64,000 nucleotides of DNA, taken from an uncultured Desulfobacterales bacterium. GTDB lineage: Bacteria > Desulfobacterota > Dissulfuribacteria > Dissulfuribacterales > S140-46. The DNA is taken from positions 1,598 to 65,597 of the forward strand of contig CAZUIH010000002.1 in assembly GCA_964620365.1 (NCBI GenBank), in the 5' to 3' direction. Of this stretch, positions 3,065-59,782 are shown piece after piece (position 1 is the stretch's first letter; the number at the start of each line of letters is the position of its first letter). The notes under the pieces are model-generated. The model was not told the origin of the DNA. It did no database searches and saw only the letters and a program-made list of their open reading frames with translations. The translations under genes were made by a program, and so were the position numbers.

Positions 3065-3173
3065 GCGATACCTCTTTCTGGCAAGGTTATGAATTTAAAA
3101 CAAACAATTGAAGTACAAGAAGTAGGACTACTTCATGCCTCCCGCCTCGCATCTTCGGCGAACTAACCGACTC

Positions 3174-3186
3174 TATAATCCGGTGG
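3174..3186. repeat. solo copy of the family-1 terminal 12-mer (TATAATCCGGTGG)
   Basis: Matches the ATAATCCGGGTT end of the repeat family with 2 mismatches. It lies about 110 nt upstream of ATG 3064. Confidence 0.35.
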
Positions 3187-5981: not shown

Positions 5982-6734
5982 TTAGCTTTCTGGTCGTACC
6001 ATGATTTTCTGGGCTAAACCAAGTCCAACGGCCAGCCTTGAACCCTTCACACTCAAAATCATAGGACCTGATTTATTCAATACCTCCACTTCGTCTCCGA
6101 CCACAAGGCCCATGTCCTGAAGCCTTCCGCGGACACTCTTTCCACCTGAGAAACTGACTATCTTGACCTTTTCACCTACCGCAGCCATGGACAGAGGCAT
6201 TGCTGAAACCTCTTTTTTCCTGCAACTCGAACAAAGTCCCAGCACAGTCAGCTTATGAAGTACAGGTTCAAATCCATGTTGCCTGGCAGCTCGCTTGGTC
6301 AACTCTCCGATATCGGATTCATTGAATTCCACAATCTTTCCACATCCTGTACAAAGCAGGTGATCATGATCACCTCCAAGATGAAGGTGCTCATACCAGG
6401 CCCCTGATCCGTTCAGCTGAGTCCGTTGCGCGATACCGTATCGGCAAAGGACCTCAAGGACGTCCCTGACCGTATCCAGGTCCACGGAATGACCGGCCTC
6501 AGCAAGCTTTTCCTGTATGAACTCAGGGGAAATATGCCCTTCGATGCCCAAAAAACAGTCAAGCACCAAATTACCATTTTCAGGCAAGACCTCGCCCGTC
6601 TGAGCCAACAACCTGTGAAAATCGTCCTTTTCCCGCTGATGAAGAGAATCAACTTCATCTTGGGTGCATGAGATGTCAACTGACTCACTCCCCTTACAAC
6701 AATCGTTCTCTTTTTTTCTCCTTCGGAACCACAT
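5982..6734 (-). CDS. Fur-family regulator fused to a C-terminal FeoA domain
   Basis: Fur-type metal and Zn sites (HLHLGGDHDHLLCTGCGKIVEF, GLCSSCRKK). These are followed by a FeoA-like SH3 segment (VGEKVKIVSFSGGKSVRGRLQDMGLVVGDEVEVLNKSGPMILSVKGSRLAVGLGLAQKIMV). Confidence 0.75.
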   Translation of the reverse strand: MWFRRRKKENDCCKGSESVDISCTQDEVDSLHQREKDDFHRLLAQTGEVLPENGNLVLDCFLGIEGHISPEFIQEKLAEAGHSVDLDTVRDVLEVLCRYGIAQRTQLNGSGAWYEHLHLGGDHDHLLCTGCGKIVEFNESDIGELTKRAARQHGFEPVLHKLTVLGLCSSCRKKEVSAMPLSMAAVGEKVKIVSFSGGKSVRGRLQDMGLVVGDEVEVLNKSGPMILSVKGSRLAVGLGLAQKIMVRPES

Positions 6735-6956: not shown

Positions 6957-7027
6957 AACCGGGATTACGCACTTAACATGCTGCAGAAATTATTTTTTAA
7001 TAAAACAAGCGAGTAAATGATAGAGGA
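6957..7027. repeat. family-1 repeat, copy D (left end plus internal block; right end missing)
   Basis: AACCGGGATTACGCACTTAAC, then TTATTTTTTAATAAAACAAGCGAGTAAATGATAGAG. The latter aligns with the internal block of copy C. Confidence 0.6.
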
Positions 7028-8097: not shown

Positions 8098-8198
8098 TCA
8101 AATACTCAGCCAGCCGGAAGGCCTACTTTGAAGGCATGGCAATAAAAAGGACCTGCTTCAGGAAATATCTAAGAATACAATTCTTCCAAGGGGGTTTT

Positions 8199-8353
8199 AA
8201 CCCGAATTACGCACTTCAACTATCCAAGGAATATTTTTTCTTATTAAAATCATTAAATTAACAGCAGGTTTTCTGTGAAAAATCTTCACCCAAAAGGTGC
8301 AACAAGTTATGTCCGGATTTCCTTGCAAACTTATCAACTGCATAATCCGGGTT
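8199..8353. repeat. family-1 repeat, copy A (155 bp)
   Basis: Left end AACCCGAATTACGCACTTCAAC, right end ATAATCCGGGTT. These form inverted termini. Confidence 0.65.
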
Positions 8354-8623
8354 TTCAATCCACTGCTAATCCAGCTTCGTGTGTAACCGATCCCCAAAAT
8401 TTTATTTGGGCACGATTGCTTGTTTAATTACTCGTGTTATCTCAATAGGTTATCCTATAATAAGCATTTTGTGGTTACACGTCAAAATTTCCACGCAAAT
8501 ATTTTTCTAAGGCATTGCTGAACCAACCAAAACACTAAGCAAACGTATTTTTTTTATTCTCCATTATTTTCATTATAAAGTCAAAAAGATTAAAACCGCC
8601 CGGATCACGCTGGGAGAGCTGAT

Positions 8624-9472: not shown

Positions 9473-9546
9473 GACACCATCTCGTATAATCGGAGTACTC
9501 TTGCACTCAAGACATGAAAAAACAGTGCATGATCCGGGATTATCGC

Positions 9547-12017: not shown

Positions 12018-12141
12018 GACCCGATTTATACACTTCAATCACCGAATCTCATGCGTATTCGGCCAGTTGAAAAACCAAGCCACACGGACATGCCCACGGA
12101 CTCAAATCCTAGGCAGTCCTGGCACAGGCATAATCCGGGTT
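12018..12141. repeat. family-1 repeat, copy B (124 bp, internally replaced)
   Basis: Left end GACCCGATTTATACACTTCAATC, right end ATAATCCGGGTT. Carries an internal CCGAAT/ATTCGG hairpin. Ends 49 nt upstream of ATG 11969. Confidence 0.6.
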
Positions 12142-12296: not shown

Positions 12297-12737
12297 TCAA
12301 TTGTCTCCGCTTCTTTTGAGTAAAAAATGGACACTCTCTTCAGGCAACTTCAGCTGCCTTGCGATTTCCGTAGTCGAGGCACCTGGATTTTCCTTGATAA
12401 AATGTTCACACTCGGCTCGCACCATATCCAGCCAATCCTGGAACAAGACCACAAGTTCCTCCGAGGTTTCGGACGAAAGCTCATGGAGTATTCCCATTGC
12501 CCCGTAAAGATGATGACACATGTTTTGTGGATCGACACCTTCATCCATGCATTTGGCAATTCAGAGCTGAACCATACTGCCGATCTTGTCTTTTCCTGTT
12601 TGCCCCACCATCTCCACTACAAAGCTTCTTTTTTCTTCTTCAGAAAGAATGGAAAAGATCTCTTTGGCCAGATGGAGTAATAGATCCTTGCCCTCTTCCA
12701 AGGTCAATGACCTGATAATGTCACCCCATTTATCCAT
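12297..12737 (-). CDS. small helical protein with C-terminal HTH-like segment, candidate selenoprotein (UGA codon 59, U-x-x-x-C)
   Basis: ATG 12737 overlaps the arsR stop (TAATG). The frame is identical to track ORF 12297..12548 (189 nt = 63 codons upstream). The single TGA is at 12563..12561, in GSMVQL-U-IAKCMDEG. There is no SD in front of the internal ATG 12548. Confidence 0.5.
12528..12547 (-). other. candidate SECIS-like hairpin for the 12297..12737 gene
   Basis: mRNA sense UGGAU-GA-AGGUG-UCG-AUCCA: 5 bp outer stem plus 2 inner pairs, with an AGGUG apical loop. The stem starts 13 nt after the UGA and GGU lies about 22 nt after it. Confidence 0.4.
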
Positions 12738-13111
12738 TATTCCTCTCCTTTCGTTTGCTCTTGCTCCTGGATTATTCTCTTCACTTCAGCCACGAGAGCT
12801 GATTCGTCCAGGTCTGGATTTATTTCAGCGACCGCCCTTCCAAGAAATTTCAAAAGTCCTTTTGAGGCCAACCGGTAGTAGATAAATGGTCCTCTTCGTT
12901 CACTGACCAAGATATTCGCGTACCTGAATTCCTTTAGATGATGAGACACAAGGGGCTGAGACAATCCAAGACGATTGACTATCTCTGTCACAGAAAGAAA
13001 ACCACATTTCTCCAACGCGATACAAAGGATAATTTTTAATCGATTTTCATCGGATAGCGACTTGAAAAAATGCGCAAGCTCCTTGATAACGATTTTATTT
13101 GACCAGCCCAT
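12737..13111 (-). CDS. ArsR/SmtB-family transcriptional regulator
   Basis: wHTH segment LSVTEIVNRLGLSQPLVSHHLKEFRYANILVSERRGPFIYYRL; 124 aa. Confidence 0.85.
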   Translation of the reverse strand: MGWSNKIVIKELAHFFKSLSDENRLKIILCIALEKCGFLSVTEIVNRLGLSQPLVSHHLKEFRYANILVSERRGPFIYYRLASKGLLKFLGRAVAEINPDLDESALVAEVKRIIQEQEQTKGEE

Positions 13112-13270
13112 AAAATAAATATATCAATGTACATTTATATGTCAATGACGCAGTTGACCCTTCTATACGACAGGTCTTTGGAACAGGACAAGTTGTGCGA
13201 TTCAACTTGACTTGCCACTGACCCACCAGTAGTAACTTATAGTTACGTGAATGTATATTGCTGGAGCTTT

Positions 13271-13527
13271 GAATCCGGAGTATGCACGTAAAATGCCGAA
13301 AAATGATTTTTTATTTATAAAACAAGCGAGTTACTGTTCAATAATAGAGAAAAACATTTCCACAAATGGAGCATCAACGTCACGCTACTTTTTTGGCATT
13401 TAAAGCCGCAGCGGGCTGCCGACTTTATCGGATCTGCCGCGTTGTCAGAGACTTGAAGTAGAAGAGTATGTATGCGTGTCTGCCGTCTTGCAACTTCGAC
13501 AAACTCGGCAGCTACATAATCCGGGTT
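13271..13527. repeat. family-1 repeat, copy C (257 bp, longest)
   Basis: Left end GAATCCGGAGTATGCACG, right end ATAATCCGGGTT. The right approximately 135 nt align with copy E. The internal block GAAAAATGATTTTTTATTTATAAAACAAGCGAGT aligns with copies D and E. Confidence 0.65.
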
Positions 13528-13573
13528 AACTCCTTTTTGTTGAAACACAAAAACAAAGTCGAGGTATCAGGTC

Positions 13574-14029
13574 ATGAACAAGAAATCTGAACTCCAGGTG
13601 TTCCGGGAATACCTGCAAAAACATAAGCTTAGATATACCAGGGAACGTGAACAGATCATAAAGGAAATCTTCTCAACCCATGACCATTTCGATGTTGAGG
13701 CCATATATTTATCCATGAGGCAGAAAGGAATCCAGGTATCAAAGGCCTCTATCTACCGGCTGATTCCCTTGTTGATCGAAACTGGACTCATACAGGAAGT
13801 CTACTATGAAGATGGCCACATGCACTATGAACATGTGTATGGCCATGAACATCATTGTCATCTACGATGTACCAGGTGTAGAAAAATCGAAGAGTTCGTT
13901 GATCGCAGACTCCAAGAGATAGAAAAAGACCTGGCTGAAAAGTTTGGTTATGAAATAATAGATCGAAAGCTTGAAGTAAAAGGTCTATGTCCTGAATGCA
14001 GGGAAAAGGTTAAAAACAAAAACAGCTAG
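13574..14029 (+). CDS. Fur-family metalloregulator (Fur/Zur/PerR type not resolved)
   Basis: HEHHCHLRCTRCRKIEEF and C-terminal CPECREK zinc-site motifs; 151 aa. Confidence 0.85.
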   Translation: MNKKSELQVFREYLQKHKLRYTREREQIIKEIFSTHDHFDVEAIYLSMRQKGIQVSKASIYRLIPLLIETGLIQEVYYEDGHMHYEHVYGHEHHCHLRCTRCRKIEEFVDRRLQEIEKDLAEKFGYEIIDRKLEVKGLCPECREKVKNKNS

Positions 14030-14054
14030 CACCGGATAAGTTTTAATTGATTTT

Positions 14055-14525
14055 ATGACAAATGTTGAACGAGCTGTTATCAATGTAGTCCTGGTGGAAC
14101 CGGAAATACCTCCCAATACAGGAAACATAGCCAGACTCTGCGGTGCCACCAACTCAACGCTCCACCTCGTCCATCCACTTGGTTTCAGTACCGATGACAA
14201 GAGCCTCAAGAGGGCAGGCCTTGACTATTGGCCCCACGTAAAAATAGTTCACCATGAAAACCTGGCTTCATTCCTGCGGGAACACGGTCAGAAGGATCTT
14301 TTTTACTTCTCAAAAAGAGGAAAGCATCTCTATACCCAGGCGCGATATACCAACGGATGTTACCTGGTTTTCGGGAAAGAGACCCAAGGACTGCCCAAGG
14401 ACTTGCTGGATAGAAACCTGGAACGTACTTTATATATCCCAATCTGGGGTAACGTGCGCAGCCTCAATCTATCCACTGCTGCTGGCATAGCAGTCTACGA
14501 GGCCTACAGACAGCTTGGATTCTGA
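14055..14525 (+). CDS. trmL: tRNA (cytidine/uridine-2'-O)-methyltransferase TrmL (SpoU family)
   Basis: 156 aa. Motifs EPEIPPNTGNIARLC and SLNLSTAAGIAVYEA, typical of TrmL. Confidence 0.85.
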   Translation: MTNVERAVINVVLVEPEIPPNTGNIARLCGATNSTLHLVHPLGFSTDDKSLKRAGLDYWPHVKIVHHENLASFLREHGQKDLFYFSKRGKHLYTQARYTNGCYLVFGKETQGLPKDLLDRNLERTLYIPIWGNVRSLNLSTAAGIAVYEAYRQLGF

Positions 14526-14663
14526 CCAATCTCATCCTCTGGCCGTCGAGCAGCATAAAATATTTATGTGCCCGGTTTCATGATTTTGGTAAGATAAACC
14601 TGTTCTGTTTGAACAGCCTCGGAAAACGCATGGAGTTTTTTCCAGCAACTGGACGGTTCGCGA

Positions 14664-16484
14664 TCAGATGGCAAGGTATGTTATAATTGACCACCTCGGG
14701 TCTATAAAATAGTCACACAGGCCTTCCAGGGATTTCCTGAGGGCCATATCCGCTGTCATCAGGAAAACTATTGAATCGCCTTCTCTCAATTTGATCTCTT
14801 CGGCCCTGAGCCTGATGTATATATCCGCTCTTTGGGAACTATGTTTAGCGTCCGTAAATATTACCGAAAGGTTCCCCTTGCGATCAATCACTGCCTGATT
14901 TTCTTTGCCATCGAATACCAGTTCCACCTCTTTCCAGTCCAGGGATTTTCTTTCCCAAAGTGCGCAAAATTCGCTCCTTGTCTTGGAGAAGTCGGCCCTG
15001 TCTCTCTTCGCCCATTGTGGAGATGACTTTATGACATTATAGCCGTCCACCAACAGAATTGATTGCTTGCAAAGATCCGCATTTTTCACCACAAACCCAG
15101 ACAAATTCGCTATCTCCCTGCCTCCATCTTCCGCCCCTGGCCGTGGGGACGCGTCACTTAACATGGAAGACTGTACCAATATCTCCCGTTCCCTCAAAAG
15201 TGACAGCATTTTTTCATGCAAAAAGTCCTGTTCGCTATCGCTAAGCATCCTGGAATAAGGCTCTCTTCTCAGGTTTTCAATCATGCTGTTCAATTCCTGG
15301 AGTCCGCTCTCGGAAATCTGTGTCTCGGCCGCATATTCCAGGATCCGATAGATAAAAGGCGTACTCACCCCATCCAGGTCTGGAAGCATCACCTTGAGTC
15401 GCAGGATTTCATTTTCCAGTTCCTTCCTGATCCTGATCAGTCCGCTTGACGGTGCAAGGCTATCCATTTCGGCCTTTCTTATCTCCCCAAGTTTTGATTC
15501 GAGCTGCTCTATGGCAGATCTTATGGAAGACCTGGTTCCATACCTCACATCCAGTTGGCGTTGAGCGGAAAGAGCCTTTTCGGCCCTGTCCAGTAAGGCG
15601 GTCACGTTCCCCTCCAGGCTATCTGCCCATAAGGTCTCTTCAGGAAGGCCTTCAGGGAAAAACTGGGAGAGAATTCTTTTCACTTTAAGCTCCACTTGCC
15701 TATCGAGTCCATCCTGAAGTTCCTTGATAAGCCGGGACTTTTCCTCACCCTCCATTTTCGCCTTTACAATGGCATCCCTTAACTCATTGACCTGTTCCCT
15801 TGCCCTAGAGAGCTCCAGTTCCAGGTGTTCTGTTTCTCTTTGAAGTCTTTTACGCGCCTTTTCGCTTTTTCTGAGCTCAGCCTTTATTTGAACAACTTCC
15901 CGTTCCGTACGCCCCAGCCCACTGGAGGCAGATGTATCCCCGGCCGCGGACAACAGGGCTAACAGCTCCCTCATGGCAGTGGGCATATCGCCTGCCATAA
16001 ACATGGGATCCACGGTCCAGAGAAAATTTCCCTTTAAAAGTCTTGTCCCTCTTCCAGCGATTCGTTCCCTGTGATCCAGAGCCATGGCTATGCCAAGTGC
16101 CGGGTCCGCAGTTGCCCTTAAGACATTGCGCCAGTTTGACACAAACCACTCCTCATCGAGCACAGATATGGCTTCGGCCCACTTGAACCATCTCGCATCC
16201 GGAAAAGAGGAAAGAAAAACGAGCCCCGGTAGCCGTGAAGAACTCTTAAACAGTGGGAATATACGCTCAATTATCGCCTGACGTACTGTTTTTTTCTCCA
16301 GCGCGGCAAGGGAAATCCTGAAACCTGATAATACATGGGCTCCCTCGAGTTCCTTTATCGCGTGTGCAAGCTTTATGAGTGATTCCGATGGAAGATTCGA
16401 AAGAAGCCACCTTGCCGCGGCTTCCCCCATCTTAGGCGGCTCCCATCCTTCCAGTAAGGAAATTTCAAATCCAGTCTGTTCCAT
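14664..16484 (-). CDS. large coiled-coil protein with C-terminal NYN/YacP-like nuclease domain
   Basis: C-terminal ILLVDGYNVIKSSPQW...VELVFDG...IFTD resembles the YacP (Rae1) NYN domain. Residues around 200-450 are heptad-rich, charged coiled coil. Confidence 0.55.
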   Translation of the reverse strand: MEQTGFEISLLEGWEPPKMGEAAARWLLSNLPSESLIKLAHAIKELEGAHVLSGFRISLAALEKKTVRQAIIERIFPLFKSSSRLPGLVFLSSFPDARWFKWAEAISVLDEEWFVSNWRNVLRATADPALGIAMALDHRERIAGRGTRLLKGNFLWTVDPMFMAGDMPTAMRELLALLSAAGDTSASSGLGRTEREVVQIKAELRKSEKARKRLQRETEHLELELSRAREQVNELRDAIVKAKMEGEEKSRLIKELQDGLDRQVELKVKRILSQFFPEGLPEETLWADSLEGNVTALLDRAEKALSAQRQLDVRYGTRSSIRSAIEQLESKLGEIRKAEMDSLAPSSGLIRIRKELENEILRLKVMLPDLDGVSTPFIYRILEYAAETQISESGLQELNSMIENLRREPYSRMLSDSEQDFLHEKMLSLLREREILVQSSMLSDASPRPGAEDGGREIANLSGFVVKNADLCKQSILLVDGYNVIKSSPQWAKRDRADFSKTRSEFCALWERKSLDWKEVELVFDGKENQAVIDRKGNLSVIFTDAKHSSQRADIYIRLRAEEIKLREGDSIVFLMTADMALRKSLEGLCDYFIDPRWSIITYLAI

Positions 16485-16517
16485 TACTACCCAACAAAGT
16501 CCATGCGTCGCTCCGGA

Positions 16518-16961
16518 TCAGCTCCGACTGTCAAGGAGCAGGGTGACCGGCCCGTCATTTACCAGATTGACCTCCATATGGGCCTGGAACACCCCTGTTT
16601 GGACAGGCACCCCCTTTTCCCTCAAGCGATCTGCTACAAATTCATACAATCTCCTGGCTTCATCAGGCCTTGCGGCATTGGAAAAAGAAGGCCTTCTGCC
16701 CTTTCTGGTCTCACCACAAAGGGTGAATTGGGAAACAAGCAGGACCGAGCCTCCCACGTCCTTCAAGGAATAGTTCATACGGCCCTCCTCGTCTTCAAAG
16801 ACCCTTAACCCTTCGCATTTATCAGCAATATAGGCCCCGTCCTTTTCTGTGTCGCCGGTTTCAACCCCCAGAAGGACAAGTGCTCCTTTGCCTATTTCTC
16901 CAACTGTATTGCCATCAACTACTACACTTGCCTTGCTCACCCTTTGATAAACTGCCTTCAT
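16518..16961 (-). CDS. dtd: D-aminoacyl-tRNA deacylase
   Basis: [18 protein letters not shown]-terminus and SQFTLCG motif; 147 aa. Confidence 0.9.
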
Positions 16962-17022
16962 TCTCCCCTTCTACCTTTGTTATTACATCCAAAATGATTA
17001 TAATCTGTGTGCCTGAAGAAAC

Positions 17023-17826
17023 ATGCATGAAAATGGCAGATCTTCTTCATTCAGCTTTTTTTCATTCGATTTGTTTACACATTACAACCGACTATTGATC
17101 AAATCAAACAACGATTATTCAATAAATAGCATGAAAGGGTTATCGAGCAAAAGAGGAGATGTCACATGTGACCGGCTAGACAAGTGGCATTTGAAGGTGC
17201 TTCAGCCTAAAAATGGATACAGGTTTTCAATAGACGCGCTGTTATTAGCCGATTTCGTAAGGCTAAAAAAGAAAGACGCACTGCTCGAACTCGGCACAGG
17301 GTGCGGCGTTGTTTCGTTGATACTGGCCAGGCGATTCCCTGAAATAGATATAACTGCCATTGAAATACAGCCTGATCTTGCGGCTATTGCCCAGAGGAAT
17401 GTTTCCCTGAACTGTCTATCACAACAAATAGATATCCTGGAAGGGGACATAAACAATATCCAGGGCCTCATCAAGGCGGGTACCTTTGGGCATGTAGCAG
17501 TTAATCCGCCATACCGTTCTCCTTCGAGTGGCAGAATCTGCCTGGAATCACAGGAGGCCCTGGCACGGCATGAAATACTTGTCAACCTGGAAAAAATCCT
17601 GGACGCTGCCAGGTACGGACTCAGGCCGGGCGGTCGCATAAGTCTTATTTATCCTGCTGACAGATTGGCTCACCTCATCAGCTCGATGCGTTCGGCACGC
17701 CTGGAACCCAAACGGCTACAACTGATCCATCCCGGTCCAAATTCACAGGCCCGCTTGGCATTGGTTGAAGGATGCAAAGATGCCGGTGAGGAACTGAGCA
17801 TTCTGCCTCCCCTTTTTCTGAACTGA
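17023..17826 (+). CDS. SAM-dependent N6-adenine methyltransferase, tRNA1(Val) m6A37 TrmN6/YfiC-like
   Basis: SAM motif LELGTGCG and catalytic NPPY (VNPPYR). The true start may be ATG 17131. Confidence 0.7.
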   Translation: MHENGRSSSFSFFSFDLFTHYNRLLIKSNNDYSINSMKGLSSKRGDVTCDRLDKWHLKVLQPKNGYRFSIDALLLADFVRLKKKDALLELGTGCGVVSLILARRFPEIDITAIEIQPDLAAIAQRNVSLNCLSQQIDILEGDINNIQGLIKAGTFGHVAVNPPYRSPSSGRICLESQEALARHEILVNLEKILDAARYGLRPGGRISLIYPADRLAHLISSMRSARLEPKRLQLIHPGPNSQARLALVEGCKDAGEELSILPPLFLN

Positions 17827-17854
17827 GCAACAGGCAAGATTTCTCACTGTCCGT

Positions 17855-18361
17855 CTATTTTTTTTTCCTGGAGCAAGACTTTAAATAAAGCCTCTTGAAA
17901 GACTCTCTGAGTTCCTGGTCCTCCATGGACTTAAACAATTCATCTGCCTTGGCCAGGTCATCCTCTGAGCAGGACGCCAGATGACCTTCTTTTTTGCCTT
18001 TTTCATCCCTCTCTTTCAATATAAAAGAGGCCCTTGTCCTTTCGATGTCACCAAGCCTGAATTTTATGTCTTTTATTTGGGATTCTTCCGGAAGCAGGTC
18101 ATTGAATCTCTTGATCAGTACAGTCTTCTGCATGTACAACTGATGCATCCAGACCGAGTCGGATACCACTATAATAAGGGTATCCCCCTCCATGAACCTG
18201 AGCGGCCACGCATGTACGGACACTGAAGGTCCTGCTATCTCCTCCCATAATGACCATATTTGGACCCTGGAAAACTTTTTTGACCAACCCTTTTTACGGG
18301 CCATCCTGGCAAGGATGTCAGACAGGCTATCTATTCTCCTATAATCGTTATGCCTGGTCAT
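17855..18361 (-). CDS. DUF721 (DciA-like) protein
   Basis: WEEIAGPSVSVHAWPLRFMEGDTLIIVVSDSVWMHQL matches the DUF721 pattern as recalled. Confidence 0.6.
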   Translation of the reverse strand: MTRHNDYRRIDSLSDILARMARKKGWSKKFSRVQIWSLWEEIAGPSVSVHAWPLRFMEGDTLIIVVSDSVWMHQLYMQKTVLIKRFNDLLPEESQIKDIKFRLGDIERTRASFILKERDEKGKKEGHLASCSEDDLAKADELFKSMEDQELRESFKRLYLKSCSRKKK

Positions 18362-37098: not shown

Positions 37099-37804
37099 TT
37101 ATGTCTTTGCAACAACCGGTTAAATAAACTCGTAGTTTACAGCGTCACAGAAAGTCAATCACTTCAATAAATATAGCGGTGCAAGGCTTATTAAATCATC
37201 AAAGAAGGCTGCACCGCAACAGATCGCACCTTTTGTTACCCCGGCAACTGATCAAACTTCTGTTTTTCCTCTTGCCCTAATATGTTAGCTGTAATGCTTT
37301 TTGTACCAAAAATAGAGAGACACAACAAGTCGACCACTCCTTGTTATTGAACAGCATGTGCTTGAACCGCCGTTCAAAAACGTCGTACGCTTCCATGTAT
37401 TGGTCCGATTGCCCAGTTGGCTCTTTTTTTCAATCCCTAATTTAGACAGCCATCGCGTTTGCTGAAGTTGTAAGGCATAAAGACAGGCAGGGACACTCCC
37501 AGTCTTCAACTACTTGACAACACAGGAAAATGGGGAAAACCGGCAGTCCCATGTGACTTCATCCTAAAAAAGCCGGTTGAGTAAAGAATTCTCTTCCATT
37601 ATCACTAAGTAACTCTCTTGTTTCGCAAATAAAAAAATTTCGGCAATTCAAGCGCGTGACACGGGATAATGACAGCAAAACCAGCCCAGTGGTCAAGAAC
37701 CTGATTTTCCAGGGTTGCATGGTGGATTTGGCATATCGTTCTTGATTTAGTGGTCAGGTTTTGGCTATGTTATATGGAATCGTATCAAGAAAGGAAAAGG
37801 AAAA

Positions 37805-58793: not shown

Positions 58794-58817
58794 GCCTTAT
58801 CTCCATTTCTATCTTTT

Positions 58818-59018
58818 AACCCGGATTATCCACTTCAACTGTCGAAAAATGATCTTTTATGCATCAACATCATGCCATGTTTTGGGCATTTTAGCCGCCA
58901 AGGACTGCCTATTTCCCGAATCTGTCTTGTTATCAGGCAGTTGAAGAATAATAATACGTCCACGTCTCTCTGACGCCCTTGCGGCTTCGACAAACGCAGC
59001 AACTTTATAATCCGGGTT
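58818..59018. repeat. family-1 repeat, copy E (201 bp, full length)
   Basis: Left end AACCCGGATTATCCACTTCAAC, right end ATAATCCGGGTT: a perfect 12 bp inverted terminal pair. Starts 25 nt upstream of the cooC-like GTG. Confidence 0.7.
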
Positions 59019-59245
59019 TAAACATTATCCTGAGTTTACTTATTATTAAACTAACAATCCAGGACAATATCTACGGATAAGACAAAAATAATACCAAAAG
59101 GTCATGGTCGTGCAAAATACTTTTCCAGGAAAACCACACGCAAACACCGTGACACGATGCCAGGACCAATGGATCATTTGAAATGACGCGTGGTTTTATG
59201 TTATTAAAAATGACAAATTACCAAAATGGCTGGAGGATTAATCTA

Positions 59246-59782
59246 ATGAAACGTACCATTGACACCATGCTGGTTCTAGGAGTGTTATTTTTTTTGACAT
59301 CTTTTATTTTCCCTGCTAAAGGTCTGGCCTCGACCTATGACACCTTCAATCCCTGTTTCAAAGACATATCCGGATGGCAGGCCGAAAAACCCGAAGGGAT
59401 GAATGTTGAAATGCCAGGCATGAAAATGCTTTCTGCGACAAGAACGTATTCGAAAGGCGACAAAAACTTTACAGTAGCTGTCAGCACCGGCCCAATGGCC
59501 AACATCACTCTTGCCGGTAACTTTCAGGTAGGGACCAAGATAGAGACTCCGGATGGTCTGATGAAGGTGGAAAAGATTAAGGGTTTCATTGCACAGACCG
59601 TTTACGACAAATCTGGAAACAGCGGAAGCGTCACTGTCGTACTCAAGAAAGATGAGGCCCAGGATCAATCAGGGGCCATGCTCATGTTTACAGGAGAAAA
59701 CATGAATCTGGATGAAGTCCTCGAGCTGGCCAAGACCTTCGACTGGCAGTGTTTCCACAAAAAGGCTCAAAGTGCCCGATAG
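59246..59782 (+). CDS. secreted hypothetical protein (178 aa)
   Basis: ATG 59246 follows GGAGGA. Signal peptide MKRTIDTMLVLGVLFFLTSFIFPAKGLA. The track start at 59183 is probably too long. Confidence 0.55.
   Translation: MKRTIDTMLVLGVLFFLTSFIFPAKGLASTYDTFNPCFKDISGWQAEKPEGMNVEMPGMKMLSATRTYSKGDKNFTVAVSTGPMANITLAGNFQVGTKIETPDGLMKVEKIKGFIAQTVYDKSGNSGSVTVVLKKDEAQDQSGAMLMFTGENMNLDEVLELAKTFDWQCFHKKAQSAR

What the first reader, a model, noticed from the sequence alone, without database searches (positions are those of the whole stretch)
13271..13527. Family-1 repeat: five copies bounded by inverted 12-mers AACCCGGATTAT / ATAATCCGGGTT
Copies:
- A: 8199..8353
- B: 12018..12141
- C: 13271..13527
- D: 6957..7027 (left part only)
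- E: 58818..59018
- A solo end at 3174..3186

C and E are the full-length forms and share about 135 nt of alignable right-hand sequence (…TTCGACAAAC.C.GCAGC…ATAATCCGGGTT). C, D and E share the internal block GAAA(A)AT(G)AT.TTTTA..ATAAAACAAGCGAGT. A and B keep the ends but have different or shorter interiors.

Terminal inverted repeats, variable internal deletions, strictly intergenic locations and no coding capacity together resemble a MITE-like element. However, I could not identify target-site duplications, and no transposase is in the window.

ORFs predicted inside the copies (8197..8397 and 13315..13548) are not conserved between copies.
Basis: seen in the sequence. Interest (0 to 1): 0.6.

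Follow-up and report, generated by a model that had tools for sequence, protein, structure and literature searches.

The report
Small non-coding transposon family (MITE)
The repeats are decayed copies of a small transposon with no gene of its own; it leaves a 5-base duplication where it lands and has the same ends as IS1380-family insertion sequences, so it is an ordinary kind of element but a family not described before.

Summary
The repeat family is real, and the MITE reading is supported. The element is CCCGGATTATGCAC…GTGCATAATCCGGG.

- **Duplication:** in 21 paired-end instances from the window, MAGs and metagenomes, 13 have identical 5-bp flanks, against 0 of 21 in each of three shifted controls. 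Six 5-mers occur among these perfect flanks or in the L043 mini-copy (TTTAA, ATTAA, ATGAA, TTAAA, ATAAA, ATTAT).
- **Window inventory:** All are intergenic. Copy E has exact ends and TTTAA/TTTAA flanks.
- **Spread:** full-length copies of about 250-265 bp sit next to functionally unrelated genes in several Desulfobacteraceae MAGs.
- **Parent family:** autonomous IS1380-family elements have near-identical ends and 5-bp duplications (L. plantarum CCTGAATTATTCAC, TTTAT/TTTAT; IS1678, GATAG/GATAG). I infer mobilisation in trans by an IS1380-family transposase.

Three things were not found: the cognate transposase, an empty site, and any Rfam match or convincing RNA covariation. Copy E is at the same site in a close relative, so it is old. 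This is a new member of a known kind, of modest interest.

The parts
13274..13525 (+). Copy C. The only full-length copy in the window (252 nt). Left inverted repeat is mutated (TCCGGAGTATGCAC); right end is ...CATAATCCGGG. Flanks TTGAA / TTAAC, a decayed duplication (3 of 5).
   Evidence: nhmmer profile positions 2-255, E=1e-58; alignment A3; flanks
58820..59016 (+). Copy E (197 nt). Both ends are exact (CCCGGATTAT / ATAATCCGGG). The interior lacks profile positions 41-102.
   Evidence: The orthologous copy in L055 keeps 51 extra nt.
58815..58819 (.). Left copy of the 5-bp target-site duplication of E (TTTAA)
   Evidence: sequence; duplication test
59017..59021 (.). Right copy of the 5-bp target-site duplication of E (TTTAA)
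   Evidence: sequence; duplication test
37435..37665 (-). Copy F. Near full-length copy on the minus strand with decayed ends (CCCGTGTCACGCGC ... CTAAATTAGGG). Flanks ATTAT / ATTGA.
   Evidence: inverted-repeat hit I1; sequence; nhmmer profile positions 1-250, E=2e-39
8201..8351 (+). Copy A (151 nt). Left arm and right end are kept; the middle is replaced or deleted. Flanks TTTAA / TTTTC (3 of 5).
   Evidence: (profile 1-101 E=8e-09; profile 216-255 E=0.003)
12020..12139 (+). Copy B (120 nt). Degenerate left end (CCCGATTTATACAC) joined to the right half.
   Evidence: profile 155-255, E=6e-05
6959..7027 (+). Copy D. Left arm only (CCGGGATTACGCAC...), truncated.
   Evidence: profile 1-58, 6959-7014, E=0.0065
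3104..3186 (+). Right-arm fragment of about 80 nt ending in ...TATAATCCGG.
   Evidence: profile 179-254, E=2e-11
9525..9538 (+). Solo right terminal repeat GTGCATGATCCGGG: 13 of 14 against the terminal repeat (read on the opposite strand it is CCCGGATCATGCAC vs CCCGGATTATGCAC). Too short to exclude chance.

Best explanation
These are copies of a non-autonomous DNA transposon (a MITE).

**Anatomy.** The full-length form is about 250-265 bp. It is bounded by terminal inverted repeats, CCCGGATTATGCAC at the left and GTGCATAATCCGGG at the right. In the 148-bp variant L044 the inverted repeat is a perfect 27 nt. The element has no coding capacity.

**Mechanism (inferred).** A transposase encoded elsewhere, most likely a DDE enzyme of the IS1380 family, binds the two ends. 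It cuts an A/T-rich target with a 5-bp stagger (observed sites fit roughly W-T-N-A-A). Repair of the gaps leaves a 5-bp direct duplication on each side.

**State of the window copies.** They are mostly fossils. C and F are nearly full length with mutated ends. A, B, D and the pieces at 3104-3186 and 9525-9538 are truncated or internally deleted. E keeps exact ends but lost part of its interior in place.

**What is shown:**
- terminal inverted repeats
- 5-bp target duplications
- many non-orthologous insertion sites
- size variants produced by internal deletion
- close similarity of the ends to autonomous IS1380-family elements

**What is inferred:**
- the identity of the mobilising enzyme
- the cutting chemistry
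- the position of E inside the 5' untranslated leader of the P-loop NTPase/folE2 operon
For: **Terminal repeats and family alignment:**

**Target duplication:** 13 of 21 element instances have identical 5-bp flanks, against 0 of 21 in each of three shifted controls. Six 5-mers occur among these or in the L043 mini-copy: ATGAA, TTAAA, ATAAA, TTTAA, ATTAA, ATTAT. A related Pirellulaceae element has ATCAG/ATCAG.

**Dispersal:** copies occur in several Desulfobacteraceae/Deltaproteobacteria MAGs and in metagenomes. Their neighbours are functionally unrelated: a PocR-LuxR regulator, DUF6178, a chemotaxis receptor, FlaG, an M23 peptidase and PRA isomerase.

**Density:** 8 copies or fragments in 64 kb.

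**IS1380 link**
- A 1649-bp IS on an L. plantarum plasmid has ends CCTGAATTATTCAC and flanks TTTAT/TTTAT. IS1678 (1678 bp) has CCTGAATAATTCATA and GATAG/GATAG. Both are annotated as IS1380 family.
- Over the first 14 nt, the L. plantarum IS is identical at 11 positions to this family and at 13 to the Balneolales relatives.
- The ISEcp1 left end shares CC-GATT-T, then ACTTCAAA, then a TTCACCC...GGTGAA hairpin at a similar offset (z about 3 for 2 of the 4 copies tested).
- IS1247 (IS1380 family) makes 5-bp direct repeats (PMC3281130, Table 2).

**No alternative identity:** no Rfam family matches.
Against: - No transposase flanked by these ends was found in the window or in any of the roughly 55 fetched loci.
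- No empty (uninserted) site was found. The one close relative available carries copy E at the same position. Recent mobility in this genome is therefore not shown.
- Window copies A, B and C have only 3 of 5 matching flank bases.
- Many duplications are the same TTTAA. Taken alone, that could be mistaken for part of the element.
- The similarity of the left arm to ISEcp1 is modest: z = 1.1 to 3.2 depending on the copy. The right arm shows none.
Confidence: 0.88

Rival explanations
1. A shared cis-regulatory module (operator plus promoter or leader) of a metal-homeostasis regulon. The A/T-rich palindrome AAAAATGATTTTT in the left arm would act as a Fur/Zur-type box, and each near-palindromic end (AAYCCGGRTT) as a binding site for a second dimeric regulator.
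For: In the window, D lies upstream of a Fur-FeoA fusion gene, C lies between an ArsR-type and a Fur-family gene, and E lies 27 nt upstream of a P-loop NTPase/FolE2 operon. Most window copies have the left arm nearest a gene start.
Against: - Copies in MAGs flank functionally unrelated genes. Some lie between convergent genes or directly after stop codons.
- Variable 5-bp flank duplications are not expected for an operator.
- The A/T-rich block is not conserved between subfamilies.
- The consensus scan places the promoter-like sites for the ArsR gene and the NTPase operon outside the element.
Confidence: 0.04
2. An invertible DNA switch family (invertons). The inverted repeats would be sites for a site-specific recombinase that flips a 100-230 bp promoter segment.
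For: Short inverted repeats flank an intergenic segment of 100-250 bp upstream of genes. Several loci share the same repeat sequence.
Against: - Target-site duplications point to transposition, not inversion.
- No recombinase was seen among the window or locus genes that I annotated. Most window ORFs were not scanned.
- Copy E has the same orientation in the window and in its close relative.
- No consensus promoter was found inside C or E that reads toward the adjacent genes.
Confidence: 0.03
3. A structured non-coding RNA (leader or small RNA) family. The ends would form a closing helix, with CUUCAAAUGCC / GGCAUUUGAAG as an inner helix.
For: Long-range complementarity exists between the two ends, and between the left arm and an internal site. 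Subfamily differences keep the complementarity: GCCTGA/TCAGGC versus GCCGAAC/GTTCGGC.
Against: - No Rfam match even at permissive thresholds.
- The RNAalifold consensus is weak: -9.8 kcal/mol, covariation term -0.22.
- Orientation relative to neighbouring genes is not consistent across genomes.
- Inverted repeats are expected in a MITE in any case.
Confidence: 0.04
4. Integron-type attC recombination sites separating gene cassettes.
For: Four copies (D, A, B, C) lie within 7 kb, each separated by one to three genes. The ends contain AAC...GTT.
Against: - The complementarity stops at the ends and does not extend outward as R''/R' core sites do. The flanks fit RYYYAAC/GTTRRRY poorly (read directly from the sequence).
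- The intervening genes that were scanned include a Fur-FeoA regulator, a histidine kinase and an AP endonuclease, not typical cassettes.
- No integrase was seen among the genes annotated.
- The elements are up to 265 bp long and carry 5-bp flank duplications.
Confidence: 0.01

Closest known systems
IS1380-family insertion sequences (ISEcp1, IS1678, IS1247, and an unnamed L. plantarum pKM2-1 element), the bacterial relatives of eukaryotic piggyBac
   Same: - The ends begin with CC.
- The first 14 nt are 11-13 of 14 identical to the L. plantarum element.
- They make 5-bp target duplications (PMC3281130 Table 2).
- The ISEcp1 left end shares the ACTTCAAA motif and a TTCACCC...GGTGAA hairpin.
   Different: Those elements are about 1.65 kb and encode their own transposase. 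The element here is at most 265 bp and has no gene. No IS1380-family element carrying exactly these ends was found.
Bacterial MITEs in general, for example Correia elements (Neisseria) and Chunjie (Geobacter uraniireducens)
   Same: - Small and non-coding.
- Terminal inverted repeats and target duplication.
- Many intergenic copies with internal-deletion variants.
- Some copies lie close to gene starts and may be co-transcribed (review PMC10969869).
   Different: The sequence and the inferred parent family differ. Correia duplicates TA (my own recollection, not checked here). No paper in the searchable library describes an IS1380-derived MITE or contains this terminal repeat in a transposon context.
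Tn3-derived inverted-repeat miniature elements (TIMEs)
   Same: 5-bp A/T-rich target duplications; non-autonomous.
   Different: From my recollection of the family, Tn3-family ends are about 38 bp and begin with GGGG. These begin with CCCGG and match IS1380-family ends instead.

Membership tests
MITE (non-autonomous DNA transposon) | Terminal inverted repeats | tested here: met
   The repeat is 13-14 nt in most copies (CCCGGATTATGCAC / GTGCATAATCCGGG) and a perfect 27 nt in L044.
MITE (non-autonomous DNA transposon) | Target-site duplication of fixed length whose sequence differs between copies | tested here: met
   5 bp. 13 of 21 instances are perfect, against 0 of 21 in each of three shifted controls. 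Six 5-mers occur among these or in the L043 mini-copy.
MITE (non-autonomous DNA transposon) | Small size and no coding capacity | tested here: met
   Copies are 66-265 bp. ORFs within copies differ between copies, and the alignment shows indels and no conserved reading frame.
MITE (non-autonomous DNA transposon) | Multiple copies at non-orthologous sites | tested here: met
   There are 8 copies or fragments in the window and dozens across MAG and metagenome loci, with unrelated neighbouring genes.
MITE (non-autonomous DNA transposon) | Presence/absence polymorphism at a site (filled versus empty) | tested here: inconclusive
   No flank-joined empty site exists among the held sequences. The only close relative has copy E at the same site.
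MITE (non-autonomous DNA transposon) | An autonomous partner element with the same ends that encodes the transposase | tested here: inconclusive
   No transposase was found in the window or the fetched loci. Related autonomous ISs with near-identical ends exist in other phyla.
IS1380-family derivative | Ends beginning with CC and resembling those of family members | tested here: met
   Identity over the first 14 nt, against CCCGGATTATGCAC:
- CCTGAATTATTCAC (L. plantarum IS): 11 of 14
- CCTGAATAATTCATA (IS1678): 9 of 14
- CCTAGATTCTACGT (ISEcp1): 8 of 14

The Balneolales variant matches the L. plantarum IS at 13 of 14.
IS1380-family derivative | 4-5 bp target duplication | tested here: met
   5 bp here. 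Also 5 bp at the L. plantarum IS and at IS1678, and for IS1247 (PMC3281130 Table 2).
IS1380-family derivative | Mobilisation by an IS1380-family DDE transposase | not testable with these tools
   This needs the complete host genomes or an experiment.
Inverton (invertible promoter) | Both orientations observed, and a dedicated recombinase | tested here: not met
   The orientation of E is the same in the window, L055 and L056. No recombinase is among the annotated neighbours. Only one site was comparable across genomes.
Integron attC site | R''/R' core sites (RYYYAAC / GTTRRRY) with outward complementarity, an integrase, and cassette genes | tested here: not met
   The flanks fit the core consensus poorly (sequence). 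The scanned genes between copies include regulators, a histidine kinase and an AP endonuclease. No integrase was seen.
Any curated RNA family (Rfam 15) | Match to a covariance model | tested here: not met
   No hit at gathering score across the window. Only chance-level hits appear at permissive E-values on copies.

The most novel reading that the evidence does not exclude
This may be the first recognised superfamily of IS1380-derived MITEs. Its terminal 14 nt are conserved across at least three phyla: Desulfobacterota, Balneolota and Planctomycetota. In addition, the roughly 130-nt right-hand module conserved across subfamilies (GGCATTTGAAGCCGCAAGGGGCT...ACCGAATCTG...CACTTGAAGTACCAAAGTACGTCTGC) may be functional cargo rather than inert filler. 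It could be a structured RNA or DNA, and at sites such as the NTPase/folE2 leader (copy E, kept in two lineages) it may have been co-opted to control the downstream genes.
Probability: 0.12. Interest if true: 0.5.

Novelty: new member of a known kind. Interest (0 to 1): 0.3.

Why it matters
- **Annotation:** it explains a set of intergenic repeats and spurious small ORFs (8197-8397 and 13315-13548) in an uncultured sulfate-reducer-like genome. It also gives exact boundaries for masking them.
- **Transposon biology:** it adds a MITE family that can be tied by its ends and its 5-bp duplication to the IS1380 family, the bacterial relatives of piggyBac. I found no described MITE of this family in the searchable literature.
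- **Host range:** near-identical ends in elements from three or four phyla suggest that one conserved IS1380 clade has spawned miniature derivatives repeatedly.
- **Gene expression:** some copies sit within 25-50 nt of start codons and probably form part of mRNA leaders. They could affect expression, although nothing here shows that they do.

Tried and rejected
**Coding remnant.** The ends read NPDY.., which is the TPR-repeat motif, and several genome-scan hits were real TPR genes (L005, L018, L021, L030). No reading frame is conserved between copies, and the frames at the two ends disagree in E.

**Other readings set aside**
- Sigma-54 promoter in the interior (TGGCAT...GC): the spacing is wrong.
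- Integron attC sites, invertons and a Fur/Zur operator: see the rival explanations.
- Known RNA: three Rfam searches found nothing. RNAalifold on 16 copies gave a weak consensus.

**Hunt for the parent element**
- I annotated ORFs next to solo left ends in L002, L010, L014, L017, L019, L038, L047, L049, L051 and L053. None is a transposase.
- The 87-aa partial ORF in L002 does not resemble the ISEcp1 transposase.
- A viral-contig scan for the left end found nothing.
- A plasmid BLAST with a full-length copy gave only chance hits.
- L043 has two ends 1.4 kb apart. The left one is a solo end and the right one belongs to a separate 66-nt mini-copy with its own ATTAT duplication. The genes between them are an ARMT1-like phosphatase and a small ORF.

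**Empty-site search.** Joined flanks found no match in the held sequences.

**Literature.** Searching for the terminal sequence returned only unrelated primers.

**Deliberately not run.** I ran no further search on IS1380 transposases. The top hits could not be aimed at Desulfobacterota.

Full report
**1. Observation**

They align to each other at both ends. The 12-mer AACCCGGATTAT, with up to two mismatches, occurs 16 times in the window. Dinucleotide-preserving shuffles give 4.9 +/- 2.2, and none of 100 reaches 16.

I built a profile from full-length copies and searched the window with it. It recovers:

| Piece | Coordinates (strand) | Profile positions | E-value |
|---|---|---|---|
| C | 13275-13525 (+) | 2-255 | 1e-58 |
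| E, right part | 58863-59016 (+) | 103-255 | 1e-31 |
| E, left part | 58820-58859 (+) | 1-40 | 1e-05 |
| A | 8201-8301 (+) | 1-101 | 8e-09 |
| B | 12039-12139 (+) | 155-255 | 6e-05 |
| D | 6959-7014 (+) | 1-58 | 0.0065 |
| right-arm fragment | 3104-3183 (+) | 179-254 | 2e-11 |

- A further solo right end, GTGCATGATCCGGG, lies at 9525-9538.
- That makes eight copies or fragments in 64 kb, all intergenic.

**2. Context**

The window is an ordinary chromosomal stretch of about 47% G+C. The ORF map has 60 ORFs, of which I scanned ten against Pfam.

A 5.3-kb contig from JGI metagenome 3300023507 matches window 12695-18009 at 99.9%. The best protein matches beyond one close relative are about 65-69% identical and carry Thermodesulfobacteriota/Desulfobacteraceae names. 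The source genome itself was not hit in the one-genome-per-species collection.

**3. Boundaries and the target-site duplication**

Exact-pattern scans with the left end found 33 genome loci and 20 metagenome loci.

- About half of the genome loci, and most of the metagenome loci, are real family members from Desulfobacteraceae/Deltaproteobacteria MAGs. A right end ...GCATAATCCGGG follows 250-265 nt downstream.
- The four Gastranaerophilales/RUG hits (L005, L018, L021, L030) are TPR genes, where NPNY is encoded by the same bases. They are chance matches.

The second scan did not force TT in front of AACCC, so the flanks could vary. They showed that the two bases outside CCCGG...CCGGG differ between copies but match on the two sides of a copy:

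| Locus | Left / right flank |
|---|---|
| L035 | ATGAA / ATGAA |
| L041 | TTAAA / TTAAA |
| L044 | ATAAA / ATAAA |
| L048 | ATAAA / ATAAA |
| L029 | ATTAA / ATTAA |
| L043 (66-nt mini-copy) | ATTAT / ATTAT |
| L006, L012, L027, L032, L045, L050, window E | TTTAA / TTTAA |

In a uniform test, 13 of 21 paired-end instances have 5 of 5 identical flank bases. None of 21 does in any of three shifted controls. Total matching bases are 85, against 27-31 in the controls. Two short near-palindromic elements (L044, L007) are counted in both orientations in that test, and one L046 pairing is wrong, so about 12 of 18 distinct elements are perfect.

The element is therefore CCCGGATTATGCAC...GTGCATAATCCGGG with a 5-bp target-site duplication.

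Window copies A, B and C have decayed flanks (3 of 5). E has TTTAA at 58815-58819 and at 59017-59021.

**4. Dispersal**

Genes next to the MAG copies have nothing in common: a PocR-LuxR regulator, DUF6178, a chemotaxis receptor, FlaG, DUF5658, an M23 peptidase, PRA isomerase, prephenate dehydrogenase and YqeC.

Some copies sit between convergent genes (L029). Some abut the stop codon of the upstream gene, with the TAA lying inside the duplicated 5-mer (L027, L029). Many loci carry several fragments, and some insertions are nested.

This is the pattern of a mobile repeat, not of a regulon-specific site.

**5. Structure of the family**

Sixteen copies align over 255 consensus positions. They fall into subfamilies. 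The window copies C, D and F share their own interior block...AAAACAAGCGAGTTACT.

The left arm is the terminal repeat followed by CTTCAAATGCC(TGA). An inverted copy of that inner part (TCAGGCATTTGAAG) lies mid-element. In the 148-bp variant L044 this forms a perfect 27-nt terminal inverted repeat. Subfamilies keep the complementarity: GCCTGA/TCAGGC versus GCCGAAC/GTTCGGC.

RNAalifold gives only a weak consensus: -9.8 kcal/mol, with a covariation term of -0.22. Rfam gives nothing at the gathering or at permissive thresholds. I see no need for an RNA function beyond what inverted repeats of a transposon already explain.

**6. Parent family**

No transposase lies in the window or next to any fetched copy. 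I therefore compared the ends with those of autonomous elements.

*ISEcp1 (IS1380 family).* I recalled its left end, and the sequence proved exact in more than 3,600 plasmids. It sits 186 nt upstream of an annotated IS1380-like ISEcp1 transposase. It reads CCTAGATTCTACGTCAGTACTTCAAAAAGC..., with a hairpin TTTCACCCATTGGGTGAAAG about 80 nt in. The MITE left arm reads CCCGGATTATGC--ACTTCAAATGCC..., with CTTCACCCAAAAGGTGAAG at a similar offset. The alignment score has z about 3 for two of four copies tested and is weaker for the other two. The right arms show no similarity.

*More distant IS1380-family elements.* These are much closer at the tips.

| Element | Size | Terminal repeat | Flanks |
|---|---|---|---|
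| L. plantarum pKM2-1 IS | 1649 bp | CCTGAATTATTCAC | TTTAT / TTTAT |
| E. faecium IS1678 | 1678 bp | CCTGAATAATTCATA | GATAG / GATAG |

Over the first 14 nt, the L. plantarum IS is identical at 11 positions to this family's end.

*Related short elements in other phyla.* The genome scan also turned these up.
- **Balneolales** (L001, L003, L026, L033): ends CCCGAATTATTCAC / GTGAATAATCCGGG and different interiors. The left end is 13 of 14 identical to the L. plantarum IS. The right end continues to match it (CCCGGATTATTCACCAAGAAAT against CCTGAATTATTCACCA-GAAAC). Their flanks are less clean (2-3 of 5).
- **Pirellulaceae** (L022): ends CCCGGATTATTCACG, with a perfect ATCAG/ATCAG duplication.

*Literature.* IS1247, another IS1380-family member, is reported with 5-bp direct repeats (PMC3281130, Table 2). 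IS1380 transposases are used as the outgroup for eukaryotic piggyBac (PMC10813416). From my own knowledge, piggyBac also has CCC...GGG ends and a TTAA target.

Ends beginning with CC, a 5-bp duplication and near-identity to the termini of family members together make IS1380 the best-supported parent family. The cognate element is not yet identified.

**7. Age of the window copies**

A contig from a close relative (L055, ENA ERZ23491469) encodes an NTPase that is 97% identical in protein. Its coding DNA is about 92-96% identical to the window. It carries copy E at exactly the same site.

There the interior is complete, with 51 nt that the window lacks, and the right-hand end (the one away from the NTPase gene) and its flank are mutated. 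The insertion therefore predates the split of the two lineages, and the deletion in E happened in place. Divergence inside the element (about 85-93% identity per 100 nt) is close to, or slightly above, that of the coding flanks, as expected for neutral sequence.

No empty site was found. Current activity in this genome is unproven, and most window copies are clearly fossils.

**8. Possible effects on neighbouring genes (inference only)**

- **Copy E.** It ends 27 nt before the GTG start of a P-loop NTPase gene, which is followed by folE2. The only consensus promoter-like site facing that operon is at 59116 to 59088 on the minus strand, beyond the element. E probably lies in the mRNA leader.
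- **Copy C.** The ArsR-type gene next to it has a strong consensus promoter (TTGACA-16-TATATT) outside the element.
- **Outward promoters.** The simple scan predicts none within C or E that read toward the adjacent genes. Each end does carry a CATAAT hexamer facing outward.
- **Metal-regulator genes.** Three copies lie near metal-related genes (Fur-FeoA, Fur, folE2), which looked suggestive. The MAG copies do not reproduce this, so I treat it as coincidence.

**9. Verdict**

The MITE interpretation is supported: terminal inverted repeats, 5-bp target duplications, dispersal to non-orthologous sites, deletion variants and no coding capacity.

The parent is most likely an IS1380-family element. 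I put confidence in the MITE reading at about 0.9 and in the IS1380 assignment at about 0.75.

This is a new family of a well-known kind of element, so interest is modest. The points worth recording are the link to IS1380, for which I found no published MITE, and the conservation of the terminal 14 nt across phyla.

Noticed in passing
window 37435-37665 (-): A near full-length copy of the same element lies on the minus strand between rnc and ilvD. Its ends are decayed.
   Followed up: yes
L001 2905-3119; L003 3265-3499; L026 5759-5950; L033 3807-3961; L022 994-1180: Short elements of 155-235 bp in Balneolales MAGs and in a Pirellulaceae MAG have almost the same terminal 14 nt (CCCGRATTATTCAC) but unrelated interiors. 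The Pirellulaceae one has a perfect ATCAG/ATCAG duplication. The Balneolales flanks are imperfect, and a 4-bp TTAA duplication may fit them better.
   Followed up: partly
window 59040-59440, compared with L055 101-500: The window and a close relative are 98-100% identical over about 400 nt here. The adjacent coding DNA is about 92-96% identical and the MITE about 85-93%. The stretch covers the promoter region and the start of a small secreted-protein gene (59183/59246 +). The reason for the extra conservation is unknown.
   Followed up: no
window 5982-6734 (-): One 250-aa protein combines a Fur-family domain (residues 57-164) with a C-terminal FeoA domain (179-248). This is an unusual fusion of an iron regulator with an iron-transport accessory domain.
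   Followed up: no
window copies D, A, B, C, F, E compared with MAG copies L006, L012, L027, L032, L036, L041: In the window, the left arm is the end nearest a gene start for six of seven copies. In the MAG loci it is usually the right arm. The numbers are small and I did not test this statistically.
   Followed up: no
L014 7726-7770, L019 3453-3496, L037, L040, L052, L054: A solo left end of about 40 nt is embedded in a sequence conserved across several metagenomes. In some loci it is followed by what reads like the start of an IS200-like (Y1/RAYT-type) transposase on the other strand (...PGAIHHVITRG...). I read this by eye and did not check it against Pfam. L014 and L052 also carry TTTCACCCATTGGGTGAAAG, which is identical to the ISEcp1 hairpin.
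   Followed up: no
L019 3630-4952 (-); L038 3133-4302 (-): An AAA_14 + DUF4143 ATPase gene lies next to a copy of the element in two unrelated loci.
   Followed up: no
L035 3039-3292: A full-length copy with an ATGAA duplication interrupts a short reading frame. With the element removed it reads MYEYDREKKRKIYSPEFKAKA..., which resembles the start of an IS3-type OrfA. This may be an insertion into another mobile element. I did not verify it.
   Followed up: no
window 8197-8397 (-) and 13315-13548 (-): The ORFs that overlap copies A and C are artefacts of the repeat. They are not conserved between copies and should not be annotated as genes.
   Followed up: partly
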